A DNA stretch of 64,000 bases from Styela clava (lineage: Eukaryota): positions 8,432,001-8,496,000 of the forward strand of contig NC_135255.1 of assembly GCF_964204865.1 (NCBI RefSeq). The letters run 5' to 3'. Both the position numbers and the translations under genes were made by a program. The notes beneath the pieces are model-generated. The model saw nothing but the letters and a program-made list of their open reading frames with translations, made no database searches and was not told the origin of the DNA. Positions 40,401 through 64,000 of this stretch are shown here, piece after piece; position 1 is the first letter of the stretch; the number at the start of each line of letters is the position of its first letter.

Positions 40401-43079
40401 TTTTTAGAATGTGAGTATATGTATGCAGTTCGGGTTAAAGTCCAAATTATCACCAAGCTTCAAATCGTGTAACACTTCGGTTGTGTGGTGGTTACACAAT
40501 CGCTATAAGTAATGATTATACTCGATAGCTCAATACTTACCGTACATCAGATATATATGATTGTGAAACGTTACTATCCTTACAATGATATTTCATATTT
40601 GACACACAAATTTCTTTGGCATGTCACCGTTTCTATTTTCAATTCATTGCCCTATAAAGAGTTGAAAGTTTAACTAACATACGTATATATAAATTATTAC
40701 CAGAGTGGTGTAGAACGTGCAAACTAAACTGGTTAAAACAATCGTCCATTTTATATCCAGAGGCGTGACTGCGTTCAGTGCTAATGCTGGGATGTAGATA
40801 GCGAACCCCATGTAAAATACCTAAAAAAACGATTGATTTATAAATTTGCTCATGAATAACACTTATTCGACAAATTGTCAATTTATAGTTATTTGACTAA
40901 AATGCGAAAAAAACATCCGGGTTAAGTAATTCACGCAGAACACTCTGGCAAATCAAGAGAACTGGTCGGTGGTCGGTAGAGTTTATTCTAGAGATTTAAA
41001 AAATAATACCTGAAATATATATATCGTCTAGTATATCGGGATTATAGATAGTAAATCTGTGGAAGGGAATAAGAAAAAACGTTGGAGATCGTTACTCACC
41101 ATCATGATGACGCTGACAGAGGAGCAGCATATGCGAACTTTTCGATCATAACGCAATTCTAAATACTAAAAATGGAAAAAAGATAAAACATTACATGATA
41201 TTTTCCCCCCAGGACTATATCGCAATATCTAATATCGCGCCCAACCTATGCTAATGTAATATAGGTAACAGATGGGTAACGAAACTTGTGGACAATGAAA
41301 TTAGAGAGGCACATTGAAAATTATCCGATAACAGTCAGTAATTGTTGACGTACAACCACATAAGCTTTTCTTACTGGGAAATGCATATTTGTATGTGTAA
41401 AACGAACTAGGCATTTTAATTAGTCCTAATGATAACTTCAAAACTCAGCCAAACGATTTTACCTCGTAAACGCTTGAAATCTTCAATTTATAGAATAGTG
41501 GAACAAAGTAAGTGCAGGCGAAAGTGACGGCAACAATATTACCGACAACAACCCATGATATTACTGCGCCAAATAAGTAAACTTCTACTGGTGTGCCCAT
41601 CATCGTAATGGCTGATATAAATGAAACAGCCATGGAGAAACCAAGTGGTATCTAAAAATAGTATTTTTATTAAAGAAACGACAAAAAGCGCTTATTACTT
41701 GTTATGAAGCTATCAAAAGAAAACGCTAAAAATTATAAAAATATTAATTAAGCCAAGAGGGAGATGCTCATATATATGAACACTAAAGATTAATTGGCCA
41801 AAAAATAGGGCCACTTCAATGTCAGTAAGATTTCAACCAATTGTCAAAAGAATTGTGCCGGATATCGTATGATTGTGTGCCTTCCAAGTATTACCATACA
41901 AATTTGAGTCAAATGTCTAGTCCCGTCGGACTGGTAGATATTAGTATTCTTGTATTTACAAATATAATTTGCAAAAATGTATCCTTTTTTACATCCCAAA
42001 GACATCGTGTCTTGGTCCCAAAAAAACTTTTTGCAATTTCTAAAAAGGAAAGAAACTATCACGGAAATGTGAAATCAAATGAGTGCTTCGCACGTTTGTG
42101 CAAGTTTTCTCCTGTAATTAACTTCTTATGGAGCCAACATACGAAAAAGCTAAACAAGAGAGCAATGCTTTCCAAATAAAAACAATAATAATCTAGCATC
42201 CCCTACTTCGTGTGAAATAGAACTTCTGTTCTAAAATAATGTTTTGTTCGCGATCCGAAATTGATGCCACATATAGTTGTTATAGTTATATGTAGTTTTT
42301 TAACACGTGCACGTATACATGATTGTGTCTGGGCCTAAATATATTTTTGCGATTCCCAAATACAATTCAGCCGTATCGACAAAATAAACTTCTCATGTTA
42401 ATAAAGCCAGACAAAAATATCCATAACTGCAGATACTTAAAAGTATAGGGTATCATAACAGGTAATTTTCCCATCATATTACATGACAAGTCAGTCCCCA
42501 ACTCTGATTACACTTGACGAATAATAAGCCCACTGTGGTGGATTTTGTCACGTTCAAATATTGCCTTCTGAGATTAGCATGGTATATAAGAATATATACA
42601 AAAATCGCAATATCCGGAAAAGATATGTTTTCATATATGTTTCACTCACCGGTGACATTGACCTGTTTCCAAAATAGTAATTTTCTGTCGTTGTGGTATT
42701 TCTGTCTCTCACCGCACAATATATTCCAACAACCACAGAAACCAATGACAATCCTATAAATAAGTATATGTTTGAGTTAGTGTATAAGGTATTAAATTTC
42801 ACAGAAAATTAGTTCGTACATACAAAAACATGACTGCTCTTAAAATTATGACTGATGCTAGATTTAATTTTCCTCCTAGCTGAAACCAGAAGTAAATTCG
42901 CGGTTTACAGCAATTTCACTCCTAAAATTTATTTACTATTTATCGTACATGACTTCAAATGTATAATTATTATAAACTAGGAATTGACATAAAACAAAAT
43001 ACCAACCCGCAAACGCGGTAAAATCAGCAACACCAAACTGTTCAGCTTCAACATCCTCAGCTGCGTGGTTCATGACCAT
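34418..43079 (-). CDS. SLC5 family sodium:solute symporter (SLC5A8/SLC5A12/SLC5A6-like)
   Basis: 13 exons: 43079-43008, ~42754-42650, ~41650-41464, ~41164-41100, ~40820-40701, ~39496-39341, ~39249-39110, ~39033-38816, ~38410-38298, ~37795-37639, ~36162-35945, ~35338-35235, ~34638-34418. Motifs ENYYFGNRSM, SFISAITMMGTPVEVY, YLELRYD, GGFKAVVWTDVVQ, CDP, GVFVAAACSGTLSTVSTGINSL, GGPIFGVFLAG. Confidence 0.92.
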
Positions 43080-44734
43080 TGCGCGAGTATCAAAAATCAC
43101 TATTATTGCAAACACAATTTATTATAAATAAATGTCTATCTAGACTTTGTGTTAATACGAAATAAATAAAAACATGTTATTCTATTGTAACCAGGCACAT
43201 CCATTCTTAACGCGACTTCTTGTAAAGAATACACTTCTTTTTCACTTGTTTCGTAACTTCGGAATCAACTTCTAAGAGTCGAATATTGACGCAATCGAAA
43301 AACTTTGTTATATTTAACAAGGAAACAAGTAGACCTGGAAATGTAATTTTTTTTTTCAAGTTCCATACAAACTGCGACGAAGGTAGTTAAATTAAGGAAA
43401 TATTAATCAGTACTTTTAGAAGATGTTTCACTCTCTTGCATACACCCCCATTGGGGCATGATGCTAAAATAAGATCGCTGAGCGAAAACGCACATTTAAA
43501 ATTAACTAGTTTCATTTATAAACACGAAATCATTCTTAAAGTAATACATCACTGCAAATAAACTGCAAATAAAACGAACATATTGCTAATGAACATACAT
43601 CAACATTTGTACTTATATATAGCCTTAATCATGTCAAATATTTGGGTATTTCAACATCAAACGGAATCTGTTTGGGTGATTGATCACCTCCTTTCGTTTC
43701 CCGTAAAATCGAAATCAGTTGTCCGCGACAATACGCGAACAATGAAAGAGTTTTAAATTGCGCGTTGTGATAGCAAAACAAGCAATATATAAGTAGCGTC
43801 CCAATTGCCTTGATCATTTATACCTTACCACGAAATTAAAGTAAGACAAATGAAGAAGGCGAAGACATCTTCAACCTTAAATAATAAATCACATCCAAAC
43901 GTCAGTCTTCAAAACCATAAAATCTGTTTACGCAATGCTGCAAACCACAAGGGGTATTTCTAACTGCAAGTCGCGGCATGTTTTTGGTCTAATTCTGTTA
44001 CGCACGATAGTTCTTGCATGCAAGAGATTACTTCATGAGCCCGAAATAATTTAAGGCCGAATATTTGGTATCGTCATGTTTGGGATATGCAATGAACGCG
44101 AACATGTAACCAAGTAATTGGAGAAAAGTCGAATGTGGACAGTTCGTTTTTTTTTCGGTATTATATTTTTGAGGTCAAACTGAGAGGCAGATATTTCTGG
44201 AGATGTCTGGCAGGCAGTGAACACAAACATGTAATCACGTACTTGGGAGAAGTCAAAGGGAAAAGATTTTCTATGTTCGTTATCTCATTTCGGGGTTCAT
44301 ACTCGGATCGTAATTGCCACCTATTGTCCAATACCCCCTCTGGGGAACACATTTTGTGGAAATTGTGTTGCATTTAATCTTGTTTAAATTCTCACGCGAG
44401 TTAGATTACGGTCCAAAAAGTGAAAATAATCAGTTGAACTGCCCTTATCGAAATGCCCAGCAAAGTCTTCAAAATTTCAGCCGCCACTATTGAAAAGCGC
44501 ATTACCAATAGCATAAACTCTTTCTGCGGTATTTGCATTATTACGGTACGATTAGAGTAATGTAATTGATGTAATTACAAAGATAGCGCAACTGTTTTGA
44601 ACACTACCGTTTCACTATATTGATATCAAACTTACAATTCAGACATTTTGTTAGTTTACAATAGTACAACACAAACGTACCAACACTATACGCAGTAAAG
44701 CTCAGACTCGACGAAATCGCTAAGTCTACTGTAA

Positions 44735-44880: not shown

Positions 44881-46431
44881 GATAGAGCAAAGTACTCGTT
44901 AGAAAATTTGTGCACTGTTGAAATATCTTTCCATCGATTCCAAAATAAATATTATATCTTCATTTGTCGGTGAGTTATAGCTAATTAACATGGCGGCGCC
45001 AGCAAAGAGAACAAAGTGATGGACAAAAAGTTGCGATCCCACAATAATAATGTTAAACGGCATATGGCGATTATTATTTGGTCCTCACCTCAAAATATAT
45101 AAAACACAACAATGATGCGGTGACCAATTGTATATGGCACAAACACTAGAAAATATAAAACGTAGAAAAATAAAAGAAACTTGGGTGAATGAAAATAAAC
45201 AAGAAATTAAGGAACAGTAGACAATGATAAGGTGCTGTCAACGATTATGTATTTTTATGTGATATATTTCTTCACATGGTGCAGGGGAAAAAGAATCGCA
45301 TAAGCTATCAAAAAGAATCGCATAATCGATATGATAAGTACTGGCGGCACATCTTATGACGTTGACCGCGACGCACAGCTGGAGGCCGCGATATCGACGA
45401 CACGCACGGCGACACGATGTAGTTACGCAACAACGTACGATCATTACGTATTGACGTAATATAGGTGCGCTCGAGCGTCGTTCGGTGGCAACAGGCAAAA
45501 AAAGCAACTTTTGCCAACTTTATCGCTTCGTCAAATTCAAATGCAAACATCATGCGTTTTTTGTGTATGAAAAGGTAAATATCTTGGTTACCCAACTGTC
45601 ATAACTAATTTATTGTTTTTACAGGAGAACGGCACTATTAATCGCCCCATTTTTTGTACTAATTTTTGGGGAAAAAACTTAACATATATTTTTTAACGAG
45701 CCTCATAGACAAAAAAAAATATTCGTGTTTTTCTTTATGAGAAAGGGGTTAATTGTTATCTGGGATTTCGGGGATTAGATTGAATTTCAATTTTTTCTTC
45801 TGTAGCTCATATGTAAATATATAACTACAGTTACTGGTGAATGTTGTTTACTGTTTGAAGTTACCTGCTCCTCATCACGTGACGAATGTTTTTATAATTA
45901 TCTCCATATCCCCCTGCATTCAATATATAGTTCAAAATAATGATTGACGCGTCATCATTTCGATCGGCGATGCAATGAGTTAATACAAAATTCAAGCGGT
46001 CGAAGTGCAACCAAATCCTGATACAATTCTTAATTGAAGGCCTCGCGCGAACAACTATTTAAATTTGGTCTGTTTTATACTCGAATGTTGTCGTTTCGAT
46101 CTCATCATCTCATTCAGCCCAATCGCCGTAGTAGAGGAAAATATATTCCTGTTCAGTCTGATATCAAACAATTTGTTTATTACAATATTTGGTTGCATGA
46201 GTATATTAGACGTATATTGACAAATTGTTCACATGAGTATAAATAGCGAAAATGCTTGCAAATTTATGCATAAAATTGTATGTAACTTGATTAGTAATTA
46301 TTAATACGAATGAAATTTGAGTCAAATGTTCGTACGTTCGTGATTTATTCAGGGTAACAGTATAATTTTTTATCATCATCATTTGGAGAAAATTATTTCT
46401 CCATCATATAGTTGGGCCCAGCCTTATACTT

Positions 46432-49139
46432 TCAAGCCCTCTTTTTTCTCGATGATAAAGCGGGAAAGATGAAGCTGTCGTCATCTTTTTTCAACACCAC
46501 TGACATAATCTCTATATCCCATGAAGTAGCCATCTCTTCCCTCGGTACGAATATAAGATCTCCATTGTCAGACGGAGCTGATACATACTGACTATTAGAA
46601 GTGCATTGTAAAGTTACTCCACCCACAGATTTACCGATTAGGAACGATCTAAAAATTGAATGTTTGCATAACACCATTATCAACTTTGCCAAACGCAGAA
46701 AGCTATTTCACTCACAAATCCCAATGAACAACATTTAAAAAATAAGTTTCACTAAACATACAAGTATCACTAAAAGTTGAATATGTTGCTAACGAATAAA
46801 CACACGTCTTCCTGTCGATATTATTGCATCATATCGGATAATTTCATTAGATGCACAAGTTATTTATGTTCTATCCATTTGGTGTCAGCTGAAAAATTAT
46901 AAATCAACTGGTTTATTCGACACTCGACTATTGGAGATTCTTTATTGGTCCAACTACTTTATTAACATAAAAGAATGATACTTACGTCCCAGTTTCTGAA
47001 AATTGTAAAGCATCATTCGCTTTAAAACTTCCACTTGAAACCCTGAAGTATGATTGTCTCCAATAGAAAGTGTCCATTCTTGATCACTTATGAGTTGCTT
47101 GGCCTGGATTTGTGTATTTATTTGAGCTCTCTCACTCATCCATTTCAGAATACTCAACTTTTGATGGATTTGCACGTTAAAGGGTTCAATCACGCTGCAG
47201 AAAAAAGACACTTCTCTGGTATCTTTGATATAAGTGATAGCTCAGTATTTTGCGAATACAGTATTACAAAAGTGGGAGTTTTTTTTATCTGAGAAGTCGG
47301 GGAGCGGATATTCGTACATGCGTCGAAATGTAAAGTTTTCTGGTGACTTATGTATTTATAAAGACAGCAATTAATGAATCATCCAAGTAACGTCATGTAC
47401 GCCGGTCCACAATATATAAATAGTTGTATAAAAGCAATTACTTACGCATTAATCATTTCAAACGACGATGCAATAAGCCAGTGCATATCATATGTTGGAG
47501 TGTCGGTCTTTACCATTTCCAGTACTTCGTTATTCTTTCCCAGATATCTATCATACGCGTTTTCAGCCCGCAGAAGTAATCCGAGCTCGGGTTGGAGAAG
47601 CATCGTAAAATACCTAGAAAAAAGTCTAATTCAGTGTCTAGTTGACTGACTTGGATATTGTGAAGTCATGTACCTCAAATAGAAGTTGGCTATTGTCAAA
47701 ACAGACATTGGAGACAGAGACGGGATATCATACTTTTAAAATGAAAATACCCCGATGACATTCCGCCGTGTCGTAGTTTCATACCGACTACAGCAGTGCT
47801 CGATAGACTTATTGAAAGGGTACACAGTTTTAACCCTCGCTCAAAGTCTGGTACACTCCACCCTCCGTATATACGAGGTAAGTAAAAACTAATATCATGC
47901 GAAAGCATTGCTGAACGTTTCAGCGTCCTAGGACCTAGGCTATTGATGATTCACGAAATCGATGGTTGTTTATGACTTTCTCCGTCATCATTATCAATGT
48001 TTATGCAAACTCAATAGTTGATTATTTATATAATTCTAACTTTGCTTTCAGATTTCATCGGCCAGTTGTGACAACGTCTTTTCCCTGGATAGGTAAGTAC
48101 AATGCAATACGTCTGGCTGCAGTGGGTCCCACACTGTCATAGGCCCCACGCTTATTTTAATTATTAAATATTAAATTTAACTTTTGTAAATTATAATTAT
48201 ATTGGTAAACGTGTTTATTCTGAGTGTAAAATAAAATTACTTTAATTGTGATTTTGTAACCCCACGGATTCATTTACTGTTATGAAATATTAATATTCAT
48301 TTAATATAGCTATCTCTGCGCAGACTGTGCCGCGCCCAATCCGTTTGCGCATAGGGCCTTTCAATAGTTTTCTTTTTAGACCAGATTCGTCATGGAGGTA
48401 AACGTTGAAAATGTTTGTTTAAGCGAATTTATTGTTTTATTACGAAAAGCATACAACCAAATTTTAGATAACTCTAGTCTAGGACAAAGCAATGGAAAGT
48501 TATCAAGATATTTTGTATATATGCATATATAATTCTTCATTTGTGACAAATTCAAGGTTAGCGTATTAGTTACATTGCTGTGATACACATTTTGAAATAT
48601 TTCGTAGTCTCCGGATTAGAAGCACCGCAATATATTGACATCGCGAGTTTGAGATGTTGTGTCAAAACTCCAAAGTCCCATGCTTATCATTTCTTTCAAG
48701 GTCTCTGAACATTGGCAAGGAAGATCGATGATTCACTTCCTCACATAGTACATATTTACGTTAAGGGAGGCCGTAACAAAATACGAGATCTCTTGAATTA
48801 TCACACTATTTATCACCTTCTCATTTCTTTATTGTTCTTTATATCGTCTTCGTATTCCAGTGTGACATCGTTTTTACTGTCGTTATAAGTTACGTACATT
48901 TTCTTCCTATGATCTGACAGAATATAAAAACTCCACAACGCGTTGCTGGTGGATCGCTCTATTCCCCACTCTTCAGCGGTCTCGGGATTCAATTTAACAG
49001 GAATACTATCATGTGGAGACCTGTTGCTGGAAATCCATTTGTTGCCTTCTCTGTCTGCCAATTCAACCTTGAAGGAGGTATTATGTTCTTCCTTTCTAAT
49101 ATTTTTAGAAGGGCTTCCACCGCATTTAAATTTTGACAT
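46432..49139 (-). pseudogene. Putative triple beta-trefoil-like protein gene, copy 1 (disrupted)
   Basis: Exons ~49139-48817, ~48790-48576, ~47860-47673, 47613-47445, ~47288-46965, 46648-46432. TGA where copy 2 has TGG (KY*AITY, ~47245), frameshifts, first intron shrunk to ~26 bp. Confidence 0.6.
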
Positions 49140-49576
49140 GTTTTTGTTGTAGCAAATCTATACAGTTGAACCATTAATTTCTAACCAATCCAACAAAAAA
49201 TAGGGAACTTGACTAAGCCAACTACCTCAACTCATTTCCTCGAAAATTTGATTTCACCTTCACAGAAGCAAATGTAAACAATAACGGTTTAAATAGGTTC
49301 TAAATGATAAATAGGTTCCGCTTGACTCAAAGGAAGTCACGCCTCCTTTCCGTGTGCGTCATTATCGATTCGGAACAGTATTGTCTACTTCCTAATCACC
49401 TTATTTTCATATATGGTTCTATTCCACATTTGCCAACTGAGTTTTATAGTTTGCCTTTTCTAGGAATCTATAACGGTTTCCGGGTAATATCAATTTATAG
49501 ATCTCAAGGCGTGAAATATAATCTAAAAACACGATAGCATGATAATATAACTAAGTTAATTTGCAAACGTTTAAAC

Positions 49577-50283: not shown

Positions 50284-50871
50284 GTTTAAACAAACATGGG
50301 GTCTATCTAACAACGAATTATACACATGCGGCAGCAAGGTCGTTTCTTCATTATTCAGCAGCACAGCCATTTTCCATAAGAAAGCTATCAATTTAGCTTA
50401 TAATTCATAGGCACAGAAGCCTTCCTCGGACTCATTTATGTGCAAATCGGATTGTATTTTTTATTAATTTGTTAATATTAATGAATTTTAATCTATATTC
50501 ACCATGACGAAAATGTGACCCAATGTATGTAAAAGATGGTTTCTGCTCAATCGAACATAATGCCCCCAATGCATGAACCCCTTTTACATTGCGGCCATGA
50601 AGCCTAGCCTACTCAACGCAACATAAAGCTAGAAACGCTGCTATCCCTATTGCGGGGTAACCTACAATGTGGTATCATAGATTGGTACGTATTCTACAAT
50701 TATCAAGAACTGCGCACTGGCAGTTTTATGTCTTATGTTGAATGATGCTCATATCACGATATTTTATAACCTCTACTTTACGCTTGTTACAAGTCATTTC
50801 TCATATTTCAATTACAAGATGTTTTCAAGTTTCTGTAAGCGTAACGTTAATAGCCTCATCCTACAAAATAC

Positions 50872-51117
50872 GGGGCTCCCGAAGTATGCGAACCAGGATG
50901 GCGGACATCGGAATGTAATATGTGTACTAGGTTAGGGTTAGGCCATAATTTTAGGTATAAATACTACGGGAGGCTCTTGGCTAGTCTTCGAACTGATAAT
51001 AGGACTAAAATAAGGAAAATTGAAAAAAAATTATCGCCTAACCCTAATCTGTTTCGGAGTGTTACCCATGTTACGTTCCGATGTCCGCCATCTTGGTTCG
51101 CATACTTCGGGAGCACC
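50872..51117. mobile_element. Palindromic MITE (same family as 19097-19264; Merlin-like ends)
   Basis: TIR ggggctcccgaagtatgcgaacca / tggttcgcatacttcgggagcacc. Perfect 8-bp TSD caaaatac (50864-50871, 51118-51125). Confidence 0.88.
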
Positions 51118-51204
51118 CAAAATACTATGCTGATGCGTTTTAAATTTTTGCAAAGTGTGCAATGATAGTTTCTGCCAAACGTTATTTTGATTGGATTCCA
51201 GGAA

Positions 51205-51829: not shown

Positions 51830-52784
51830 CAGAGTCGTCCAACCCATGGCTCGCGGGTCATATGTGGCCCGCGGAAGCATTTCCTGTGGTCCGCGCTGTA
51901 TTTTTTTTTTTGGAATTAAATAAAAAAAAATTATTGAGTATGCCTATTATTTGAGTGATGTAGTATGCGAAGATGTGATACAAACGATTCGATTATTTTT
52001 TCGAAATGCGCTCTGCCAGCCCTTTCAAGTGCCATTTTTAATCGAAACCAACTGGGAGTAGACATCAATACAGATAGATATCGAGATATTGTGACCTAGT
52101 CGCTACGTACATACATAAAATCCATAATACTGTAATACACACATAAAATCGAGCTACTTCGTGGCAGAAATAAAAGCAAAACAGTCGAAGCCATTCTCAC
52201 ATTGAGAATTCTATATTATTAAGCGATGTTACGTTCGGGTTTCCGATGTTTTATGTCCGGAAACAAAAGAGGCATTTGCAAATATAAACCTATGAAGACA
52301 GACGATTCTTGTCGTGTTGAAGAGCTTGGGAATTCTATAGCAGAAACTTTAATTGCAAAAGCGGGAAAGTTTTCATCATATTCCTTGGTGCTTGACGAAA
52401 GTAATGACATGAAGTCTACTGCTCATCATGCGGAGAGTTGATGATGGTTTTGAAATTAGCGAAAGGCTCGCAGTCATTGTCCCATTTGATGACACGGCTA
52501 TGGGCATTGATTTGTTGGGAGCTGTGATGAAAATGATCAAGCGTCTTGGCTTGTCTTTGACAAAACTTTTGGGAATAAACACTGATGGCGACCCATCAAT
52601 GGTTGCGAAACAACAGTTTTATTGTTCTAATAATTGTGAAAGTTTTGCGTGAGGGTATTGTTTGTTTTGTCATTAACCCGTAGTCAGTGTAGCAAAACTA
52701 AAACATAACTACCATGTTAAGTGGACGGCGCACTTATTAGTAAATTACATGTGGCCCTTCGACTAAAAAGGTTGGACGACCCTG
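51830..52784 (+). mobile_element. Internally deleted hAT (Charlie/SPIN/GTF2IRD2-type) transposon
   Basis: TIR cagagtcgtccaacc / ggttggacgaccctg. TSD gtctatag/gtctaaag. Transposase remnants YSLVLDESNDM and LLGINTDGDPSM. Confidence 0.9.
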
Positions 52785-53078
52785 GTCTAAAGCAATATCA
52801 ATCAATAGTATAAAAGCTACAACCAGTTATGTAGGATCGAGTGTTTTTTTGTATTCTCTATGACAAATTGTTACGTTGCTAACTAAGCTAATATAATACT
52901 AAAAAACTTCTTAAATTAAAGCAGTATGATATATATAACTTGAATTTTGTTTAATACATTTCAACTATTTTTTGTTTTCTTGTGCTTTTCTAGTATATAT
53001 ATATAGTCTGGGTTGGCAAAGTTCTGTTCTACCTAGATGCTGTCCTTATTTTCATCTTGCCTAACATTTCGCCCAAAA

Positions 53079-53403: not shown

Positions 53404-56400
53404 GGGGGGTCTCCAAAATGTCGTGTCCCATTTGTCCCATGTGTCCCATTTGTACCACGCGTACCACCTGTCCCACTTATCCCACGTGTTTTACGTGTCC
53501 CACTTGTCCCACATGTACCACTTGTACCAAGTGTACCACTTCTCTCACTTGTACCACGTGTCCCACTGTACCACGTGTCTCACTTGTCCCATGTGTCCAG
53601 CGTGTCCCACATACGGGTAAGGATCATCCTATTTTTCAATTTCAAATTTTGAATAAAGCGCGCCACCACCATTTTTGTAAATTTAGAATTGTCGAACCAG
53701 ATAAGTACGACTGGTAAATTTTGTATTCCATGGAAATTTTCCGAGATATTGGGGACGGGAGAAAATATTATTTTGACTACATAGAAATTCCATTATTGCC
53801 GATTTATTCAAGTATTTATATCAGTGTTTTATTCAGCTTCAAAAATATCGCATTCCGGGGTCAGTGATACTGTGTGCTTAAAATTGGGACCTTAATTTAC
53901 AAACTGTGATACAAATCCTACAAAAAAGATGAAAAGCAGCATAAAATTAATTTGTGTTGTGAATGCACTCCTTAATAGTTATTTTTGACATCGTCGCCGA
54001 TGTGAAATCAAATTTCTGTCCAAAAAATAAAACCAAACTGCGATATCCGCCGTTGCATGAGAATTAATATTTACTAGTATATACAAAGGGCTTTAATATA
54101 GTTTATCATCATCAATTGGGATGCCAAGCCGCCGAAAGGATCGCGGTGACAAAAATACTACTGCGGCCTTGGATTATGTGAAAAATTAGAAAATAAAAAT
54201 CGCTGCATTGTTGCGAAGTTTTCAGTCTTCAAGTAAATTTCAAAAAATCGTTTCGGTCGACATCCAAAATACGGTTGTTTGAAATGACAACACCCATTAT
54301 TCGGTGTTGTGTTAGTTGAAAATACTCGAATATTTCGACTAAAAAAACTATTTGCCCACCGCTAATCACGACACATGGTAATTATCATTGAATGGCAATT
54401 AAAAATCAAATTGTTTAGCATAAAAATCCAAGTAATAGTTTCACATTTGATGCATTTGATCGGCGCTGCATGCGAGCGTGTTTTTGTACTTATAAACGAT
54501 TTTGACGCTACTGACATCCGCGAGTTACACTTCTCTCAAAATTAATTTTCACGATTTCTAATGTTCTATTTTCAAATGCGGATACTGCTGACTACGGATT
54601 AATGGTCGATATTTGAAATAGTATTTGCAAAATATTCACCATAAACCGCCAGGCACATAAGAGGCGGGCTACACGGAACTGTGGAATTTCGCTGTGAACG
54701 ACGCATTCTTTTCAGTTTAATAAACGCCTTACGTCGTCGTGAATTGCACTTTGGGTGCTCTTTAATTTGGGTGTTTTGAGTTCACCGAAAATTTTGGCCG
54801 CGCCCATGTCGGTACCTATCCGATATCAACCCGGCTATATTCCGGCACTGATACCAAGTCATAATTTGTCACCCATGTCATCAATAACCAAAACTTTTGT
54901 GCTTGCTATTACCAGAAAGCCTATGTTGAATGAAATTGCGACCTGCGGTTTTACTCAGTTATCTTTATCTGGTCCTTCTGTATTAAATGTTGCACACCCT
55001 TGGTTTTAACTACTTAAATTGCTTTGAAACCTAGTTCTTCGCTTGATACTTATCATGTTTTTTCAATTTTCGTCATTTTTTCTGTAAATTTAGAGCAATA
55101 AGAGAATAGTTCAGGTAGTTTGTAGACAATATGATATGTAAAAGTTGATAAGGTCCCGGGCAGATGTTGACATTAACTATCGAACCAAGAAATTATTGCC
55201 CCATCTAACATGAATACTACCATATTATTTATGATATTTTTATGATTCTCCTGCATTTTTCCCTCCGATTTTATATGTATCTGCAATTCTGCCAAGATGT
55301 TTGTTATTTTATTGCAAGCATCAATTGCTTTTACTATTTTATACCAATTTCTTTTTATTTCTATACTAAGTTCCCTTATATTTTTCATCTTCAAGTCATT
55401 CGTACTTGATGATACTAGCCTAGTCAATTTGAAAAAATGCTACAATCACAATTTCTTACATCATTGTGATCATACATTTTTGGCGCACTCACGACAAAGA
55501 ACATAAAGTCATGTTTTTGATGGAATTAGTCTGCTTTACAAGTGCGTCTTTCTAACAAAAATAAACGAATTGCTTCAATTGAGCATTGAATGATTGAGCA
55601 TATACTATAGCTAAAAATAGTATTATTTATTACGTAATTTGTCTACAAATATCTCATTCATTGGAGGCACGTTTTCCAAACTGGAAAAAAATTCATCCCT
55701 GGCGAGTAACTTTGTCCTTTTGAAAAGGAATCGGCTTTGTATTTGCTGTAGCATTACTGATTTCCCAAAGTTCGCTCTGCCTACTATAATACAATGCACA
55801 CATCCAATTAGAAAAAACTGAAACTGTACAAAATCGGTTTTTCAACTAGGACACTAGACAAAGATCTAAGGATAAAATAATTACAGTAGTTTTTATGCAT
55901 AGTGGGGGAAGAATAAAAAGGTTGAAAGATTTGATAAGGGAGAAGTTTAACGGATAAGGTTTGGAATCACATGACTTTTACACCTACATCTTATTCATCA
56001 AATATTTTGTACACATGTATCCCATTTATCATACATACCATTTAACAGATGTTTTGTCCACCAACAGCTCATCCGTGAAATGTTTTCTTTTCATACATGT
56101 CGTTCAGGGGTTTTGTCCACATATATCTCATTCGACAGCATATTTTGTTCATATACATCTCGTTTCCTTGATGAAACAACAGCTCATTCGCGAAATGTAT
56201 TCTCTTCATACATTTTGTCCAGGGGTTTTGTCCACATGTATCTCATTCGCTGAATATTTTGTCCACATGAATCCCGTTTATCATACATTTTATTCACCAG
56301 ATATTTTGTCTATATATATTTCGTTTCCCTCATAAAACAGTTGCCGTGATTATTTGCTCGTTAAAAGAAAGACTTTTTCAGTGAGACTCTTCTGTGACGT

Positions 56401-56953
56401 ATAATATTCAATCCATGGTAATTAACTTAATTTTGTCTAACGTAACTCGCTGTGGCGACTTTTTAAATACATTGCTACTCAAAAAAAAAAACAGATGTAA
56501 TATGCGGACATAACCACATGAGATAAACTGTCTAATTATATTTAGTTTTGATAGGTATGTTTGCAATCTTGCTAATTCGTTATCGCCGTTAGGAATCCGT
56601 ATTTTTGCAATTTTGCGAATTAGAGAAATCCGTACTTGTAACACAGATCCGATCAATGCTGCAGATTATTTTGAAGATATAACCGTAATAATCGCACGAC
56701 GTAAAATCTATTTTAGTAGTAGTGGGGCGAGTGGGACACGTCATTTTGAGACACCGACGGGACAAGTGGGACACGTGGTACAAGTGGGACATGTGGGACA
56801 AGTGTAATACGACATTTTTAAGACACCGGTGGGGCAAGTGGGATACGTAGTACAAGTGAGACAAGTGGTACACGTGGCACAAGTGGGACACGTGGGGCAA
56901 GTGGGACACGTGGGGCAAGTGGACAAGTGTGACACGACATTTTGGAGACACCG
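53404..56953. mobile_element. Non-autonomous DNA transposon with GG-starting TIRs and subterminal 9-bp minisatellite arrays (Merlin/MULE-foldback-like)
   Basis: TIR ggggtctccaaaatgtcgtgtc vs the right end read as ggtgtctccaaaatgtcgtgtc. 8-bp TSD atcgaaaa (53396-53403, 56954-56961). Inverted (tgtcccac[t/g])n arrays at 53418-53610 and 56730-56945. Confidence 0.8.
55980..56335. repeat. Degenerate tandem repeat inside the transposon (ttttgtccacat-based units)
   Basis: Recurrent attttgtccacatg/tatctcattcg/aacagctcat motifs. Confidence 0.6.
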
Positions 56954-57220: not shown

Positions 57221-58181
57221 CCCATCGTTGTCTTTTCTTTTATTTTTATTACGTGCGTGACTTCTCGGCTTAACGCTAGATACTTCAAACAAAAAAATGA
57301 ATAACAAGCACGCAGACAGGTAATATCAAGAGCAATTACGATAAATCAATTATGACATCATAATCACAAATTTAGTCCGTGTCAAAAACAGTGTTCTAGG
57401 ACACAAATACACAACAGTGTGCAGTCTGCACTGTTGAGTTGAATAACGCTAGCAAGTTTCGATATTTCGAATTGGAGTGACTTCTTTTTTAATAAGGCTA
57501 TTGCGTAACGACAGTAATTTATATTTTGAAGTAATTCGAATTGGAATAAATTTCAATTTTTCTTCTGTAGCTCATTCTAATATATGTGAAAATATAACCA
57601 CGGTGAATGTGGATTATTGTGTGAAGTTTTCTGCTCCTCATCACGTGCCCACTGTATTTCTAATTATCTCCATCGCCGCCTACATTCAATATATAGTTTA
57701 AAATAATGATAAAAGTCAATATAAAATTCCAGCGGTCTAAGCGCTACCAAATCTAGATACAATTCCTTATTGAAGGCAACGCGCGCACAACTATTAGCCA
57801 TCGATCAAGTTTTTAAATTTGATCTGTATTATATTCGGCCCCATCGCCATACTAGAGGTACCGTAAATGCATTCCTGTTCAGTCTTACATAACTAAATAT
57901 GCTCATTACTGTTGGGTTTGCATGAATATATTAGATACATAATTGATAAATTTTAGCATGAATATAAATAGCGAAAATGTTTGAAATTTATGCATAAAGT
58001 TGTATGTAATTTGATTAATAATTTTTAATACGAAACGTTATTCACAAATGACATTTAGGTCAAATGTTCGTACGTTAGTGATTTATCCAGGTTAACAGTA
58101 TAATTGTTCATCATCATGTGAAGAAAATTATTTCTCTATCATCGTTGTGCCCAGCTTTATACTTTATAGTTCTCTCTTATT

Positions 58182-61100
58182 TTAACGACGATAAAGCGGG
58201 AAAGATGATGCTGTCGACACCCTTCTCAACACCAATTTTCCAATCTTTATATTCCATGAAGTAGCCATCTCTTTCAGCGGTACGAAGAAAAGATCTCCAT
58301 TATCAGGTGGAGCTGACACATACTGATTATTAGAAGCGCATCGTATAATTACTCCACCTCCACATCCATCGATTAGGAATGACCTAAAAATTGATCATCA
58401 TTGCAATCAACACTTCCAAACGTCGAAAGGTATTTCACGTATAGAGATTGCGCATACAAATCATGATGAACAACATTTAAAAATTGACCAAAGCTATTTT
58501 ACATACAAGTTCCACTAAATTTGAATGAAATGTTCTCAAATAAGCACATTTCTTCAACTGCTGTCGATATTACTGAAGGATATTGATAATTTCATTAAAT
58601 GCACAAGGTATTTATGTTCTATTCATTTGATGTCCGCTGAAAAATTGTGAATCTAATATTTAACTATATGACAAATTTTGATTTTTTATTTGTAATTCTA
58701 TTTAATATTAAATAGTCAAAATACCTAGAAATAGCATTTCAACTGGTTTTACTGCGGCTCGACTATTGATGATTCTTTATTCGTTCAAAAAATAAGAGAA
58801 TGATACTTACGTCCCAACTTCTGAAAATTTCAAAGCATCATTCGCTTTTAGACTTCCAACTGAAAACCCTAACAAAAAATTGTTTACAACAGAAAGTGTC
58901 CAATCTTGTTCACTGCTGAGTCCCTCAGCCTGGATTTGTGTATTTATTTGGGCTCCCTCACTTTTCCATTGCAGATTATTCAACATTTGATGGATTTGCA
59001 CGTTGGAAAATTCAATCACGCTGCAGAAAAAAAGACACTTCTCTGATATCTTCAATATAAGTGATCGCCCAGTATTTTGCAAATACAGTATTATTACAGA
59101 AGTATTTTTCTATTCGAGCGGAAGGAAGAATTCGGGGATCGAATAAAATTTTCATATTCATCTTGTAGCTCATTTTCAAAATATGGAAAAGGCTAATCAT
59201 AATTAATGGTGAATATGATAAGTGAAGAATCAATCCCTTTTTCTAATTATTTATTTTTATCGTCCACCACAAGTGCATTCGTACATGCGTCAAAATATAA
59301 AGTTTCCTGTTGAGGTATGTATTTATAAATAACGCTGATGTAATGAGCCAGTGCAAATCATATGTTGGAGCGTCGGTAGTCACCATTTCCAGAATCCCAT
59401 TATTCTTTCCCAGATATCTATCATGCGCGTTTTCAGAACGTAGAAGTAATCCGAGTTCTGGCTGGAGAAGCATCGTAAAACACCTAAAGAAAAAGAGTTT
59501 AATTTAGAGTCAGTTTACTGAGTTGGAAATTGAGATGTCGTGTAACCCGTATAGTTACCGATCGGTTTAACAAGCAACTCTTTCAACTTGACTTGTAGAA
59601 GTTAGGTATTGTCAAAACAAACATGAAGACAAAGAAGAGATATCATAATTTAAAAATTAAATACCCCAATGTCATTACCTCGTGCCGTAGTTTCAAACCA
59701 ACTACACCAGTGCTCGATAGCCTATTTGAAATGGTACACAGTTTTAACCATCACTCAAAGCCTGGTACATCCCACACATATATGTCAGTAAAACTAATAA
59801 CATTATTATGCGAAATTATTGCTAAACTTTTCGCCGTCGTAGGCTACCGATCATTCGCTTAAGCCAGGGTCGTCGAACCCGTGACCCGCGGGCCATACAT
59901 GGCCCGCGGAAGCATTTAGAGTGGCCCGCGCTGTATTTTTCAGAATTGAATAAAAAAAAATTGAGTAAAGATGTGATACAAACGATTTGTTTATTTTCCT
60001 GAAATGCGCTCTACCATCCCCTTCAAACGAGCCATGAGTGCCATTTTGAATCAAAACCAACTGGGAGGAGATATCGATACAAAAAGGTGACATACTCGCT
60101 TACTCTTGCCTATTCACAACTCTATATGATCTTATCGCAAAACAATCGAAGGAATGTATATTATTATGTATTGTTCGGGTTGCCAATGTTTTACGTCCGG
60201 AAATAAAAGAGTTTTTTTTTTTCAAAAATAGCCTGTCAAGACAGACCATAGCTTGTCGTGTTGAAGAGCCCGGGAAATCTATAGCGGAAACTTTAGTTGC
60301 AAAAGCGGGAAAATTTTCGTTGTATTCTTTGGCGCTTGGCGAGAGCACTGACATCAAGTTTACTGCTCAGTTGGCAACTTGACAATCTTCTTGCGGGGAG
60401 TTAATGATGATTTGAAATTACCGAAGAGCTATTGAGGGTATACGAATGGAGGCATTGATTTGTTGGGAGCTGTGATAAAAAAGATCAAGCGTCTTGGCTT
60501 TTCTTTGGCGAAACTTTCGGGAATAACCACTGATGGCGCCCCATCAATGATTAGGAAACAACAGTTTCATTATTCTAATAATTGTGAAAGTTTGGTGTGA
60601 GGGCATTTTTTTTTTCATTAACCTGTAGTCAGTGTAGCAAAACTAGAACATAACTACCATGTTAAGTGGCCCGCGCAATTATTAGTGAACTACATGTGGC
60701 CCTTCGACCAAAAAGTTGGCCGACCCTGGCTTACGTTTACGACATTCTCCACTGTCATTACGTTATCAATGTTAAAGCAAACTCAATAGTTGATTATTTA
60801 TTTGATTTCAACTTTGCTCTCAGATTCCATCAGCCAATTGTGACAACATCTACGCCCGGCAAGTAAGCACAATTCAATCCGCCCGGCTGCAGTGGCCCCG
60901 CACTTCCGCATGCCCCTCGCTTATTCTGTATATCAAATATTATATTTACCTTTATAAATTATAATCATATGGATATGGGTAAACGTGTTTATTTTGACTG
61001 TAAAATAGAATTGCTTTCATCGTGATGTTGGAACTATTTAAAAGATAATAAAATGCAAAATCGAATTCAATTACTGTTATAAAATAGTAATTTTTATTTA

Positions 61101-61935
61101 ATATAGCTATCTCTGTGCAGACTGTGCCCGCCCAATCTGTTCACGCATAGTGCCTTACATTAAAATTTTCCCCTATGACCAAATTCTTCGTGAGATTTAA
61201 CGTTAATAATGTTCGTTTATGCGAATTTGTGATTTTTCGCAAATTAATATTTTATTACGATAAGCATACAGCCAAATCTTAGGAAACTCTAGGGCGAAGA
61301 AATGGACAGTTAACAAGACATTATGTATAATTATATATATATGTTATGCTTTATTTGTGACAAATTGCCAAGGCTAGCGTATGTAGTTACATCGATGCGA
61401 TACACATTTTGAAACATTTCTTAGTCTCTGGATTAGAAACACCGAAATACATTGATATCGCGAGATTGAGATGTTGTGTCCAAAGTGGCATGCCTACTAT
61501 TTCTCCCTGGATCCAAACATTGGCAATGTATATGCAATGAAGACCAATGATTCACTTCCACATAGAGTACATGATTACGTTTGGGGAGGGCGTCACAAAA
61601 TACACTAGATCTCTTGAATTTAATGTATTAACTATGCATTTTATGACCGAATCGAGTTATCACACCATTTATCACCTTCTCATTCCATTATCGTCCTTTA
61701 TATTGTCTTCGTATTCCAGTGTGACGTCGTTATTACTGTTGTTATAAGTTACGTACATTTTCTTCTTATGATCTGACAGAATATAAAAACTCCACAACGC
61801 GGCGCTTGCAGATTGCTCTATTCTCCAATCTTCAGCCTCGGAATTCAATTCAACAGGAATACTATCATGTGGAGACCTGTTGCTGGAAAACCATTTGTTG
61901 CCTTCTCTGTCTGACAATTCAATAAAGTTTGACAT
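58182..61935 (-). pseudogene. Putative triple beta-trefoil-like protein gene, copy 2 (disrupted)
   Basis: Exons homologous to copy 1. 20-codon in-frame deletion near the N-terminus, +1 frameshift in an A7 run (~59030), stops in the exon 2/3 equivalents. Confidence 0.6.
59865..60728 (+). mobile_element. Internally deleted hAT element, same family as 51830-52784
   Basis: TIR cagggtcgtcgaacc / agttggccgaccctg. Degenerate TSD gcttaagc/gcttacgt. Remnant TTDGAPSM. Absent from the paralogous intron (~47945). Confidence 0.88.
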
Positions 61936-62639
61936 GTTTCTGTTGTAGCAAATCTATTAAAAAATATCTAAAAAAATTCGTCGAAGAAATACCCGGAAGG
62001 AGTTTTGTAATCATCACAGATTATGAAAACTGCATTATTTTCAGAGAAATTTAATTATAATTGTGGGTAAAATTAGGCAAAAATCCCGTAAATTCCCCGT
62101 CGTTCCCTCTTGCAAAGTAAGTGCTATCTACTTCGGATCGACCAGTTGAACCATGAATTCCTAACCAATTCAATAAAAAATAGAGAACTTAACTAAGCCA
62201 ACTTCCTCAGCTCACTTCCTCGATCATTTGATTTAACCTACACAGAATCAAATGATCAATAGCGCCTTAGAAAACGACCACGATAAGTTCCGCTTGACTC
62301 AAAGGAAGTCGCGCCTCCTGTATGTGTGCGTCATCATCGATTCGAAACAGTATTGTTTACCTTTTATTCATCTTATTTTCATATTTAGTTATATTGCATA
62401 TTTGTCTACCGAGTTTCACAGTTTGCCTATTCTAGGAATTTATATCGGTTTCCGGGTAATATCAATTTAGGAATCTCACGGCGTGAAATATAATCTAAAA
62501 ACACGATAGAATGATAATATAACTAAGTACATTAGTAAAAGCTCAAACTAACACGGGGCCTATGCCTATCTAACAACGAATTTCACACATGCAGGAACAA
62601 GGTCCTTTCTCCATCATTCATCGAGCACAGCCATTTTTC

Positions 62640-64000
62640 GGTTTCGTGTTCGTTGAAAATATTCGTATAATTCGACTACAAAATCTATTTGCCTGCCACT
62701 AATTACGGCGCATTTTAATTATCATTGAATGGCAATTAAAAATCAACTTGTTTAACATTTAAATCCAAGTAATAGTTTCACATTTAATGCATTTGATCGG
62801 CGCTACATGCGAGCGTGTTTTTGTACTTATAAACGATTTTGACGCTACTGACATCCGCGACTTATACTTCTCTCCAAAATTAATTTTCACAATTTCTAAT
62901 GTTCTATTTTCAAATGCGGGTACTACTGACTACGGAATAATGGTCGATATTTGAAATAGGACTTGCAAAATATTCACCATAAACCGTCAGGCAAAGAGAG
63001 GCGGGCTACATGAAACCGTTGCGTCGTGATTAGTGGTGGGCAAATAGTTTTTTTAGTCGAATTATTCGACTATTTTTAACGAACACAACACCGAATAATG
63101 AGTATTGTCATTTCAAACAACCGTATTTGGGATGTCGGCCGCCGAAAAGATCGCCGTGACAATTTTATTTTTCGGAATTTATTTGAAGACTAAAACTTCG
63201 CAACAATGCAGCGATTTTTATTTCCTAATTTGTCATAATCCAAGGCCGCAGTAAGTACTTTTGTCACCGCGATCCTTTCGGCGGCTTGACATCCCAATTG
63301 ATGATGATAAACTATATTAAAGCACTTTTTATTCACTAGTAAATATTATTTCTCATGCAACGGCGGATATCGCAGTTTGGTTTTTATTTTTTGGACAGAA
63401 ATTTGATTTCACATCGGCGACGATGTCAAAGACAACTATTAAGATGTGCATTCACAACACAAATTAATTTTTGCTGCTTTTTATCTTTTTTGAAGTATTG
63501 TATCACAGTTTGTGCATTAAGGTCCCAATTTTAAGCGAACAGTATTACTGACCCCGGAATGCGATATTTGAGAAAATATTCGTGAATGTGATAGTTGACT
63601 TTTTTATGCTTTCAATTTTATATCGTGTCCGTGTTACTTTCGTATTAATAATAATTAAAAACTCCGCAAATTGGTAATCTCTCTAATACTCAGTGTTGAG
63701 AATTAACGTAACTCAGCTTTGGAATGAAACACTGATACTAAATACTTGAATAAATCGGCAATAATGGCATTTCTACGTGGTCAAAATAATATTTCTCCTC
63801 GTCCCCAATATCTCGGAAAATTTCCATAGAATACAAAATTTACCAGTCGTACTTATCTGGTTCGACAATTCTGAATTTACAAAAACGGTGTTGGCTCGCT
63901 TTATTCAAAATTAGAAAATATGATAATCCTTACCCGTAAGTGGGACACGTGGTACAAGTGGGACAATTGGGAAAAGATGAGACAGATGGGACGAGTGGTA
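62640..64000. mobile_element. Rearranged second copy of the 53404-56953 transposon's left arm
   Basis: 62640-63017 is a direct copy of ~54300-54680. 63022-64000 is an inverted copy of ~54372-53600 running into the gtgggaca minisatellite at the window edge. Confidence 0.85.

What the first reader, a model, noticed from the sequence alone, without database searches (positions are those of the whole stretch)
46432..49139. Hidden gene for a leaderless protein with three tandem beta-trefoil-like (IL-1/FGF/fascin-fold-like) repeats
Seen: joining exons and comparing both paralogues gives three ~140-170 aa internal repeats that the ORF track does not show. Each opens with a hydrophobic-Cys motif (SKFKCGG...SFKVEL; SIYCGAS...YFKMCI; YFCN...YWAITY). 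Middle lobes align (LWSFYILSDHRKKMYVTYNDSKNDVTLE vs GVFSFKSMIS.L..VCFDNSQLLFE). Each ends in a similar last lobe (VFC.GLP.RKYVLCEE...TLEF; LLLRAENAYDRYLGKNNEVLEMV...HW; VTLQCTSNSQYVSAPSDNGDLIFV...SW). A phase-2 intron precedes the last lobe in all three repeats, which points to internal exon-block triplication. There is no signal peptide. Established: this hydrophobic-strand/Y-L/terminal F-or-W pattern characterises beta-trefoils, IL-1 cytokines are leaderless, and IL-1-like activity has been reported biochemically in tunicates. Inference: this may be an undescribed multi-domain beta-trefoil cytokine-, lectin- or fascin-like family.
Basis: partly seen in the sequence, partly recalled or inferred. 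Interest (0 to 1): 0.8.

Follow-up and report, generated by a model that had tools for sequence, protein, structure and literature searches.

The report
Sea-squirt double beta-trefoil gene family
This is a real, spliced sea-squirt gene (frameshifted in this copy) from an unnamed family of at least 22 copies, predicted to fold into two, not three, beta-trefoil domains and likely to act as a fast-evolving sugar-binding defence protein rather than the missing tunicate interleukin-1.

Summary
The gene is real, but it is neither hidden nor triple. RefSeq lists it as uncharacterised Styela clava LOC144424560. It has four exons and three phase-2 introns and encodes about 305 aa. An intact paralogue folds (pLDDT 82) into two beta-trefoils plus a C-terminal hairpin. 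The two halves are homologous and carry an intron at the same position, so this is an exon-pair duplication. The genome holds at least 22 loci, 10 intact and 12 broken. The window copy has a frameshift that is open in RNA contigs from other samples. Purifying selection acts at depth (dN/dS 0.21-0.32) and relaxes in recent duplicates (0.54-0.77). There is no significant Pfam or PDB sequence match, and no named homologue outside Styela clava. Fold matches tie among lectins, IL-33 and protease inhibitors. The IL-1 hallmarks (FES motif, signature, PDZ, 3-5 exons per trefoil) are not met, and neither are canonical ricin-B sugar sites. Best reading, 0.4: a leaderless two-domain lectin-like defence protein with non-canonical binding sites. 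The function is untested.

The parts
48817..49139 (-). Copy A exon 1 (323 nt): ATG, a disordered tail of about 20 aa with Cys and basic residues, and strands 1-7 of trefoil 1
   Evidence: (RefSeq X2)
47614..48816 (-).
47446..47613 (-). Exon 2 (168 nt): strands 8-12 of trefoil 1 and the linker
47195..47445 (-).
   Evidence: (skipped in 4 of 4 runs)
46986..47194 (-). Exon 3 (209 nt here, 210 in paralogues): strands 1-7 of trefoil 2; 1-nt frameshift near 47037, polymorphic
   Evidence: X5-X7 hold one more base, X8 does not; DNA contig of X1 as in the window
46649..46985 (-). Intron 3 (phase 2), at the same position in trefoil 2 as intron 1 in trefoil 1
46432..46648 (-). Exon 4 coding part (217 nt with stop): strands 8-12 of trefoil 2 and the C-terminal hairpin; contigs run on to about 46196 (3' UTR)
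61676..61935 (-). Copy B exon 1 (lacks the N-terminal tail); appears to serve as an alternative first exon for copy A exons 2-4
   Evidence: RefSeq X3; loose end at 47615 in X5-X7 equals the end of this exon
58182..59483 (-). Copy B exons 2-4, broken (exon-2 donor lost, 1-nt deletion in exon 4); transcribed, with intron 3 retained in one contig

Best explanation
The locus is one copy of a Styela family of four-exon genes encoding leaderless proteins of about 300-326 aa, predicted to fold into two tandem beta-trefoils, that likely act as two-headed glycan-binding (lectin-like) defence proteins. SHOWN: exon structure, splicing, homology of the two halves with introns at the same position (duplication of a two-exon unit), at least 22 loci with 10 intact and 12 broken, purifying selection at depth, and a segregating frameshift in this copy. 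PREDICTED: two trefoils (residues 21-159 and 166-283) and a C-terminal hairpin (277-295). INFERRED: the protein is made in the cytosol. In members with an N-terminal Cys/basic tail it may be tethered to membranes by acylation. It would bind foreign or exposed glycans through non-canonical polar pockets; the best candidate is lobe alpha of domain 2 (K181, Q194, Q197, Q202-x-W204). With two domains it could cross-link targets inside the cell or after release from damaged cells. Tandem duplication, loss and exon sharing between neighbours would diversify specificity. The window copy itself is a null or near-null allele in this assembly.
For: Top fold matches are mostly lectins or carbohydrate-binding modules: Mitsuba-1 Z 14.8 (rmsd 2.2, 117 aligned), 3vsf galactanase module 14.8, SeviL 14.5, PPL 14.3, MOA 14.2, CCL2 14.6. 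The best whole-chain Foldseek hits are the two-trefoil lectin HA33 (E 1e-7), then fascin and a T-disaccharide-binding agglutinin. In the ESM Atlas, 21 of 30 feature hits for domain 1 are RicinB_lectin_2 clusters, and 9 of the 10 listed structure rows are ricin-B-type clusters at TM 0.73-0.77. A Trp closes 4 of 6 lobes in 12 of 12 aligned members, with Q-x-W at domain-2 lobe alpha in 9 of 12, like SeviL, which keeps QxW in lobe alpha only (PMC7744527, passages). Leaderless trefoil lectins act in marine invertebrate immunity (MytiLec-1, PMC4882566, passages). Birth-and-death pattern.
Against: No lobe has the conserved acidic residue in its second strand plus aromatic residue in its third that ricin-B/CBM13 sites use, nor the WExF motif of CBM92 (definitions from PMC11039641, passages). 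Fold scores are tied within 1 Z unit with IL-33 (14.5) and macrocypin (14.1), so the fold does not pick the function. Atlas feature overlap (142-152 of 256) is below the 170 typical of same-family hits. No Pfam lectin model scores significantly; the best is CCL2-like at E 0.11. No tissue or immune-challenge data were available. The amphipathic-helix test on N-termini was not significant.
Confidence: 0.4

Rival explanations
1. A cortical protein-binding adaptor that works like fascin or hisactophilin: two trefoils bind actin or another cytosolic protein, and the N-terminal Cys/basic tail ties it to the membrane.
For: Fascin is the second family in the Foldseek list (E 3e-6; Z 13.4). Fascin/FRG1/DUF7910 clusters appear among Atlas feature hits, and DUF7910 gives weak Pfam hits (E 0.03-0.08). 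There is a Cys in the first 12 residues in 8 of 13 proteins. Hisactophilin as a model is recalled, not from a call.
Against: A separate locus with four Fascin-profile hits lies on contig C18, and none of the 5 Fascin hits falls on this family. The proteins are acidic (pI 4.9-6.6). High turnover (12 of 22 loci broken) is unlike a core cytoskeletal gene (inference).
Confidence: 0.2
2. A divergent, duplicated IL-1/IL-33-like alarmin: a leaderless cytokine released from damaged cells that binds an Ig-TIR receptor, and thus the IL-1 not yet found in tunicates.
For: Domain 1 matches IL-33 at Z 14.5, rmsd 2.7, 132 aligned, tied for first. It has no leader. IL-1anc was not found in Styela clava by a PDZ- and BLAST-led search whose authors warn it may miss divergent members (PMC13736523, sections 6 and 7). 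Putative IL-1 receptor genes are reported in Ciona (PMC5465252, passages).
Against: Strand 9 reads L/F-L/F-R-A, not (F/L)ES, in domain 1 and L/F-x-C in domain 2. The IL-1 signature is absent in 13 of 13. There is no PDZ domain. Each trefoil has two exons and one intron, against three to five exons and two central introns in IL-1. ESD and the TIR hits are not beside any family locus (weak evidence, because tunicate gene order is scrambled, own knowledge). IL-1Ra ranks 49th at Z 12.1.
Confidence: 0.08
3. A cytosolic protease inhibitor that works like the fungal mycocypins or cocaprins, using variable loops to block pathogen or lysosomal proteases.
For: Macrocypin gives the longest alignment to domain 1 (137 residues, Z 14.1-14.3); cocaprin scores Z 13.5 and clitocypin 12.1. 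Cocaprins are leaderless, acidic, tandemly arrayed and look like ricin-type lectins (PMC9104457, passages). An Inhibitor_I66 cluster is among Atlas hits.
Against: Those inhibitors are single-domain fungal proteins; there is no sequence link.
Confidence: 0.1
4. One reading: three tandem trefoils from exon-block triplication, the middle one decayed.
For: Motif-like resemblance by eye; a low-depth contig retains part of intron 1.
Against: Intron 1 scores like shuffled sequence against the family profiles. All 10 intact models have four exons, including the subfamily at about 20% identity.
Confidence: 0.02

Closest known systems
Leaderless beta-trefoil lectins of mussels and fungi (SeviL, MytiLec/CGL, CCL2, CNL, MOA)
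   Same: Beta-trefoil fold (Z 12.7-14.8), no signal peptide, Trp closing the lobes, QxW mainly in lobe alpha, lineage-restricted sequence
   Different: Two trefoils in one chain plus a C-terminal hairpin; no detectable sequence similarity; canonical acidic/aromatic sugar residues absent; binding untested
Two-trefoil lectins (HA33, ricin-B-type chains, T-disaccharide agglutinin 1jlx)
   Same: Tandem pair of trefoils of about 280-300 aa; best whole-chain Foldseek matches
   Different: Predicted domain orientation differs (whole-chain rmsd about 16 A); 9-14% identity; no (QxW)3/Cys pattern
IL-1 superfamily / IL-1anc (PMC13736523)
   Same: Leaderless 12-stranded trefoil; IL-33 ties as best match to domain 1
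   Different: Two trefoils, no PDZ or pro-region, no FES motif or signature, one intron per trefoil
Fascin / FRG1 / CBM92 fascin-like domains
   Same: Tandem cytosolic trefoils; weak profile and feature resemblance
   Different: Two domains instead of four (recalled for fascin); a separate fascin-like locus exists on C18; no WExF motif
Mycocypins and cocaprins
   Same: Leaderless, acidic, tandem-arrayed trefoils; high fold score for domain 1
   Different: Single-domain fungal proteins; no sequence link

Membership tests
beta-trefoil fold | 12 strands in three lobes, matching solved trefoils | tested here: met
   AlphaFold2 model of paralogue P0003, pLDDT 82, pTM 0.82; Z up to 14.8 for both domains
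   Two repeats align (prob 84%, E 7e-6, score 37 against a maximum of 21 in 40 shuffles); the third is intronic and at null level
IL-1 / IL-1anc | (F/L)ES motif in strand 9 | tested here: not met
   Strand-9 columns in 12 members; the only [FL]ES strings fall elsewhere
IL-1 / IL-1anc | PROSITE IL-1 signature (as quoted in PMC7144542, searched with an optional extra Pro) | tested here: not met
   0 of 13 proteins
IL-1 / IL-1anc | Trefoil encoded by 3-5 exons with two central introns | tested here: not met
   Two exons and one phase-2 intron per trefoil; criterion
IL-1anc | N-terminal PDZ domain (lost in a subset) | tested here: not met
   Only about 20-35 residues precede trefoil 1; no PDZ hit in Pfam scans
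IL-1anc | Linkage to ESD, GCC2 or an IL-1R-like gene | tested here: inconclusive
   ESD is on C18; TIR hits are on C10, C5 and C2:0.73 Mb, far from the family; GCC2 not tested; synteny is weak evidence in tunicates
IL-1 / IL-1anc | Receptor binding, immune induction, proteolytic maturation | not testable with these tools
   No tissue or treatment labels on the runs; no receptor sequence at hand
ricin-B / CBM13 (R-type) lectin | QxW in each lobe with paired Cys | tested here: not met
   QxW is common only at domain-2 lobe alpha (9 of 12); no conserved Cys pairs; criterion from PMC11212257
ricin-B / CBM13 (R-type) lectin | Acidic residue in lobe strand 2 plus aromatic residue in strand 3 | tested here: not met
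   Column table of all six lobes; criterion from PMC11039641
lectin (functional) | Reversible glycan binding | not testable with these tools
   Needs a glycan array
CBM92 / fascin-like bacterial domain | WExF at the end of each lobe | tested here: not met
   Lobe ends; criterion
fascin | Match to the Fascin profile PF06268 | tested here: not met
   0 of 9 members hit it; 0 of 5 genome hits fall on this family
mycocypin / cocaprin protease inhibitors | Protease inhibition through exposed loops | not testable with these tools
   Fold similarity only

The most novel reading that the evidence does not exclude
The family is a tunicate stand-in for, or an extremely diverged and internally duplicated descendant of, IL-1/IL-33: a leaderless double-trefoil alarmin that signals through a Styela Ig-TIR receptor and explains the old reports of IL-1-like activity in tunicates, the lineage in which the 2026 IL-1anc survey found no gene.
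Probability: 0.08. Interest if true: 0.85.

Novelty: new variant of a known kind. Interest (0 to 1): 0.38.

Why it matters
It assigns a predicted fold and an evolutionary history to a set of 'uncharacterized' Styela genes that sequence searches cannot place: a previously unnamed, rapidly turning-over family of tandem beta-trefoil proteins in the sister group of vertebrates. If lectins, they would be new glycan-binding scaffolds with non-canonical sites and part of ascidian innate immunity. They are also concrete candidates to test, and probably exclude, in the open question of whether tunicates kept an IL-1-like ligand. The locus also shows a segregating null allele and apparent splicing of one copy's first exon onto the next copy's exons.

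Tried and rejected
Single-sequence AlphaFold2 of P0003 failed (pLDDT 35); the alignment-based model was used instead. Sequence searches of the PDB and Pfam gave nothing significant; the weak hits (ribosomal S8, complement C5, Symfoil at E 0.07, CCL2-like at E 0.11) were not used as proof. PF00340 (IL1) and PF14200 found nothing in the genome; the first had a silent control, and both work exon by exon, so these blanks do not show absence. The metagenome scan found no relative (word-seeded, weak). The two Tetragenococcus hits in the prokaryote scan share one 8-residue word in what looks like an SPFH/band-7 membrane protein (family label recalled) and were rejected as chance. The viral fold search gave only generic trefoil hits. 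The amphipathic-helix idea for the N-termini was not significant (p 0.11 or higher in 12 of 12). Lobe-level internal symmetry was weak: only the two alpha lobes align clearly. No run is on record as RNA; I treat X5-X8 as RNA because their contigs skip GT..AG introns that DNA contigs keep. The 6% sample of raw Hi-C reads was too thin over the gene to type the frameshift. Three look-ups in earlier findings returned nothing. Literature: six locus or protein ids gave 0 papers; 'Styela' with 'beta-trefoil' gave 6 papers, 5 listed, none about this family by title or abstract start. Most subscription journals are not in the library and supplements were not read, so these genes could appear unnamed in expression tables.

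Full report
WHAT IS THERE. The window is G000:C6:8432001-8496000. The region 45774-49576 is duplicated at 57540-62548. Exon 1 retrieved RefSeq proteins named 'uncharacterized protein LOC144424560 [Styela clava]' (this locus, isoforms X2-X4) and LOC120331751. The gene is therefore annotated but uncharacterised, and the organism is the ascidian Styela clava by the sources' own names.

GENE STRUCTURE. Contigs of four runs guessed to be RNA skip 46649-46985 and 47195-47445 in 4 of 4 runs; DNA contigs keep intron 3. Intron 1 is 47614-48816. It is removed in RefSeq X2 and, from an alternative donor, in X5. The X5/X6 contigs that cross the main junction differ from the window's exon 1 by about 10% and carry the 5' end of the nearest paralogue, so they show the homologous splice rather than this copy's. 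The exons are 323, 168, 209 and 217 nt, all introns are GT..AG and phase 2, and with one N at the break the frame gives 305 aa.

THE FRAMESHIFT AND COPY B. Exon 3 lacks one base near 47037 relative to paralogues. Runs X5-X7 (one study) hold the extra base; X8 and a DNA contig of X1 do not. It is therefore a segregating allele, not an assembly slip. In X5-X7 a contig joins the end of copy B's exon 1 to a sequence at least 90% like A's exon 2. B's own exon 2 is only about 85% like A's, and RefSeq X3 models the same B-to-A join. B's first exon thus appears to be spliced across 14 kb onto A, which would give a tail-less protein of 284 aa from an open allele. This is partly shown, because the joint table was cut.

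THE THIRD REPEAT IS NOT REAL. Intron 1 matches only the two closest paralogues, at 70-88% nt and with stops in every frame. A low-depth contig that keeps part of intron 1 has stops in all frames.

TWO REPEATS ARE REAL. Profiles of the two halves align at probability 84%, E 7e-6, score 37, against a maximum of 21 in 40 shuffles; introns 1 and 3 fall at the same aligned position. The same three phase-2 introns occur in a subfamily only about 20% identical.

FOLD. AlphaFold2 on a 29-row alignment headed by the intact paralogue P0003 gave pLDDT 82 and pTM 0.82, with a disordered N-terminal 19 residues and a C-terminal strand pair at 277-295. Among 48,161 representative chains, 144 score Z 8 or more; the 50 listed are trefoil-containing proteins aligned to residues 21-159 or 166-283. 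The leaders are tied: Mitsuba-1 14.8, a galactanase module 14.8, SeviL 14.5, IL-33 14.5, MTX 14.4, PPL 14.3, MOA 14.2, macrocypin 14.1; CCL2 scores 14.6 in the second look. FGF4 (12.2) and IL-1Ra (12.1) rank 44th and 49th. Whole-chain Foldseek ranks HA33, fascin and a T-disaccharide agglutinin, but with a different domain orientation. The ESM Atlas, from its own model, points to ricin-B-type clusters at TM 0.73-0.77. The fold is well supported; it does not give the function.

THE FAMILY. Searches and fetched stretches show at least 22 loci on C2, C6, C8, C9 and C14, mostly in tandem. Ten give open four-exon models. Twelve, including both window copies, are broken in this assembly. Two of the broken ones have open versions elsewhere: this one, and LOC120336317 in an older record. 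Pairwise dN/dS is 0.21-0.32 for four distant pairs and 0.54-0.77 for five recent pairs (NG86). An exhaustive phmmer of 1.84 billion representatives gave 9 hits; 7 carry Styela clava names, one is the window's own isoform X4, and one (P0010) is unnamed. A word-seeded profile search gave 9 of 9 Styela clava. P0010's exons match G000 at 67% at best, mostly 35-60%, and it falls inside the main clade on the tree, so it probably comes from another species. A more sensitive profile search might extend the range.

WHAT IT IS NOT. Against the criteria in Fontenla-Iglesias et al. (PMC13736523; abstract, sections 6 and 7 and the first part of section 12 read), the family lacks the FES motif in strand 9, the PDZ domain and the 3-5-exon trefoil, and it lacks the IL-1 signature. 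That paper found no IL-1anc in Styela clava and warns it may miss divergent members, which keeps a small chance open. It is not the fascin orthologue. It is not a canonical R-type lectin or CBM92 (against passages of PMC11212257 and PMC11039641). PMC9020223, PMC7144542, PMC7744527, PMC9104457, PMC4882566 and PMC5465252 were read as passages only.

HOW IT MOST LIKELY WORKS. Failing membership lowers 'is a ricin-B lectin', not 'works like a leaderless trefoil lectin'. SeviL and MytiLec show that marine invertebrates have evolved such lectins with unrelated sequences and atypical sites. Here the conserved polar residues cluster in domain-2 lobe alpha (K181, Q194, Q197; Q202-x-W204) and domain-1 lobe gamma (R123, R130, Y131), which are plausible ligand pockets (inference). 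Two domains would allow cross-linking. Tandem birth and death with segregating nulls fits a defence gene (inference). Eight of 13 proteins have a Cys in the first 12 residues, five of them with 4-5 basic residues in the first 20, which hints at acylation and membrane tethering (inference, untested). I put the lectin-like defence reading at 0.4, a fascin-like adaptor at 0.2, a protease inhibitor at 0.1 and an IL-1-like alarmin at 0.08; the rest is unassigned.

VERDICT. This is a real, unnamed, lineage-restricted double-trefoil family and a new variant of a known kind. The headline claims of three repeats, a hidden gene and IL-1 kinship do not hold. Interest 0.38.

Noticed in passing
window 61676-61935 to 47613: Copy B's exon 1 appears to be spliced across about 14 kb onto copy A's exon 2 (RefSeq X3; loose ends in X5-X7), giving a chimeric, tail-less isoform.
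   Followed up: partly
window about 40600-43100, minus strand: Multi-exon sodium:solute symporter gene (Pfam SSF, E 1e-4 on one exon) just downstream of the family copy.
   Followed up: partly
window 51830-52785 and 59865-60729: Two copies (70-79% nt) of a high-copy element, one inserted in copy B's intron 1; the translated remnants look like a decayed hAT/GTF2IRD2-type transposase (recalled; no Pfam hit).
   Followed up: partly
window 50850-51130 and 19090-19270: Very high-copy palindromic repeat (extreme depth in DNA runs) with TTAGGG-like words at its loose ends; probably a MITE.
   Followed up: no
window 53422-53610, 56759-56934, 63938-63998: 9-bp tandem arrays inside a repeated element with inverted copies.
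   Followed up: no
G000:C3:10629261-10629482: A Fascin-profile hit in a 272-aa open frame, apart from the C18 fascin-like locus; possibly another trefoil gene.
   Followed up: no
G000:C14:16315700-16334000 (L063, L064): A broken family copy whose exons 1-2 and 3-4 lie about 17 kb apart.
   Followed up: partly
P0001, P0008, P0012: Several RefSeq isoforms skip a whole symmetrical exon (2 or 3) in frame, which would remove part of one trefoil; some of these models route round broken exons.
   Followed up: no
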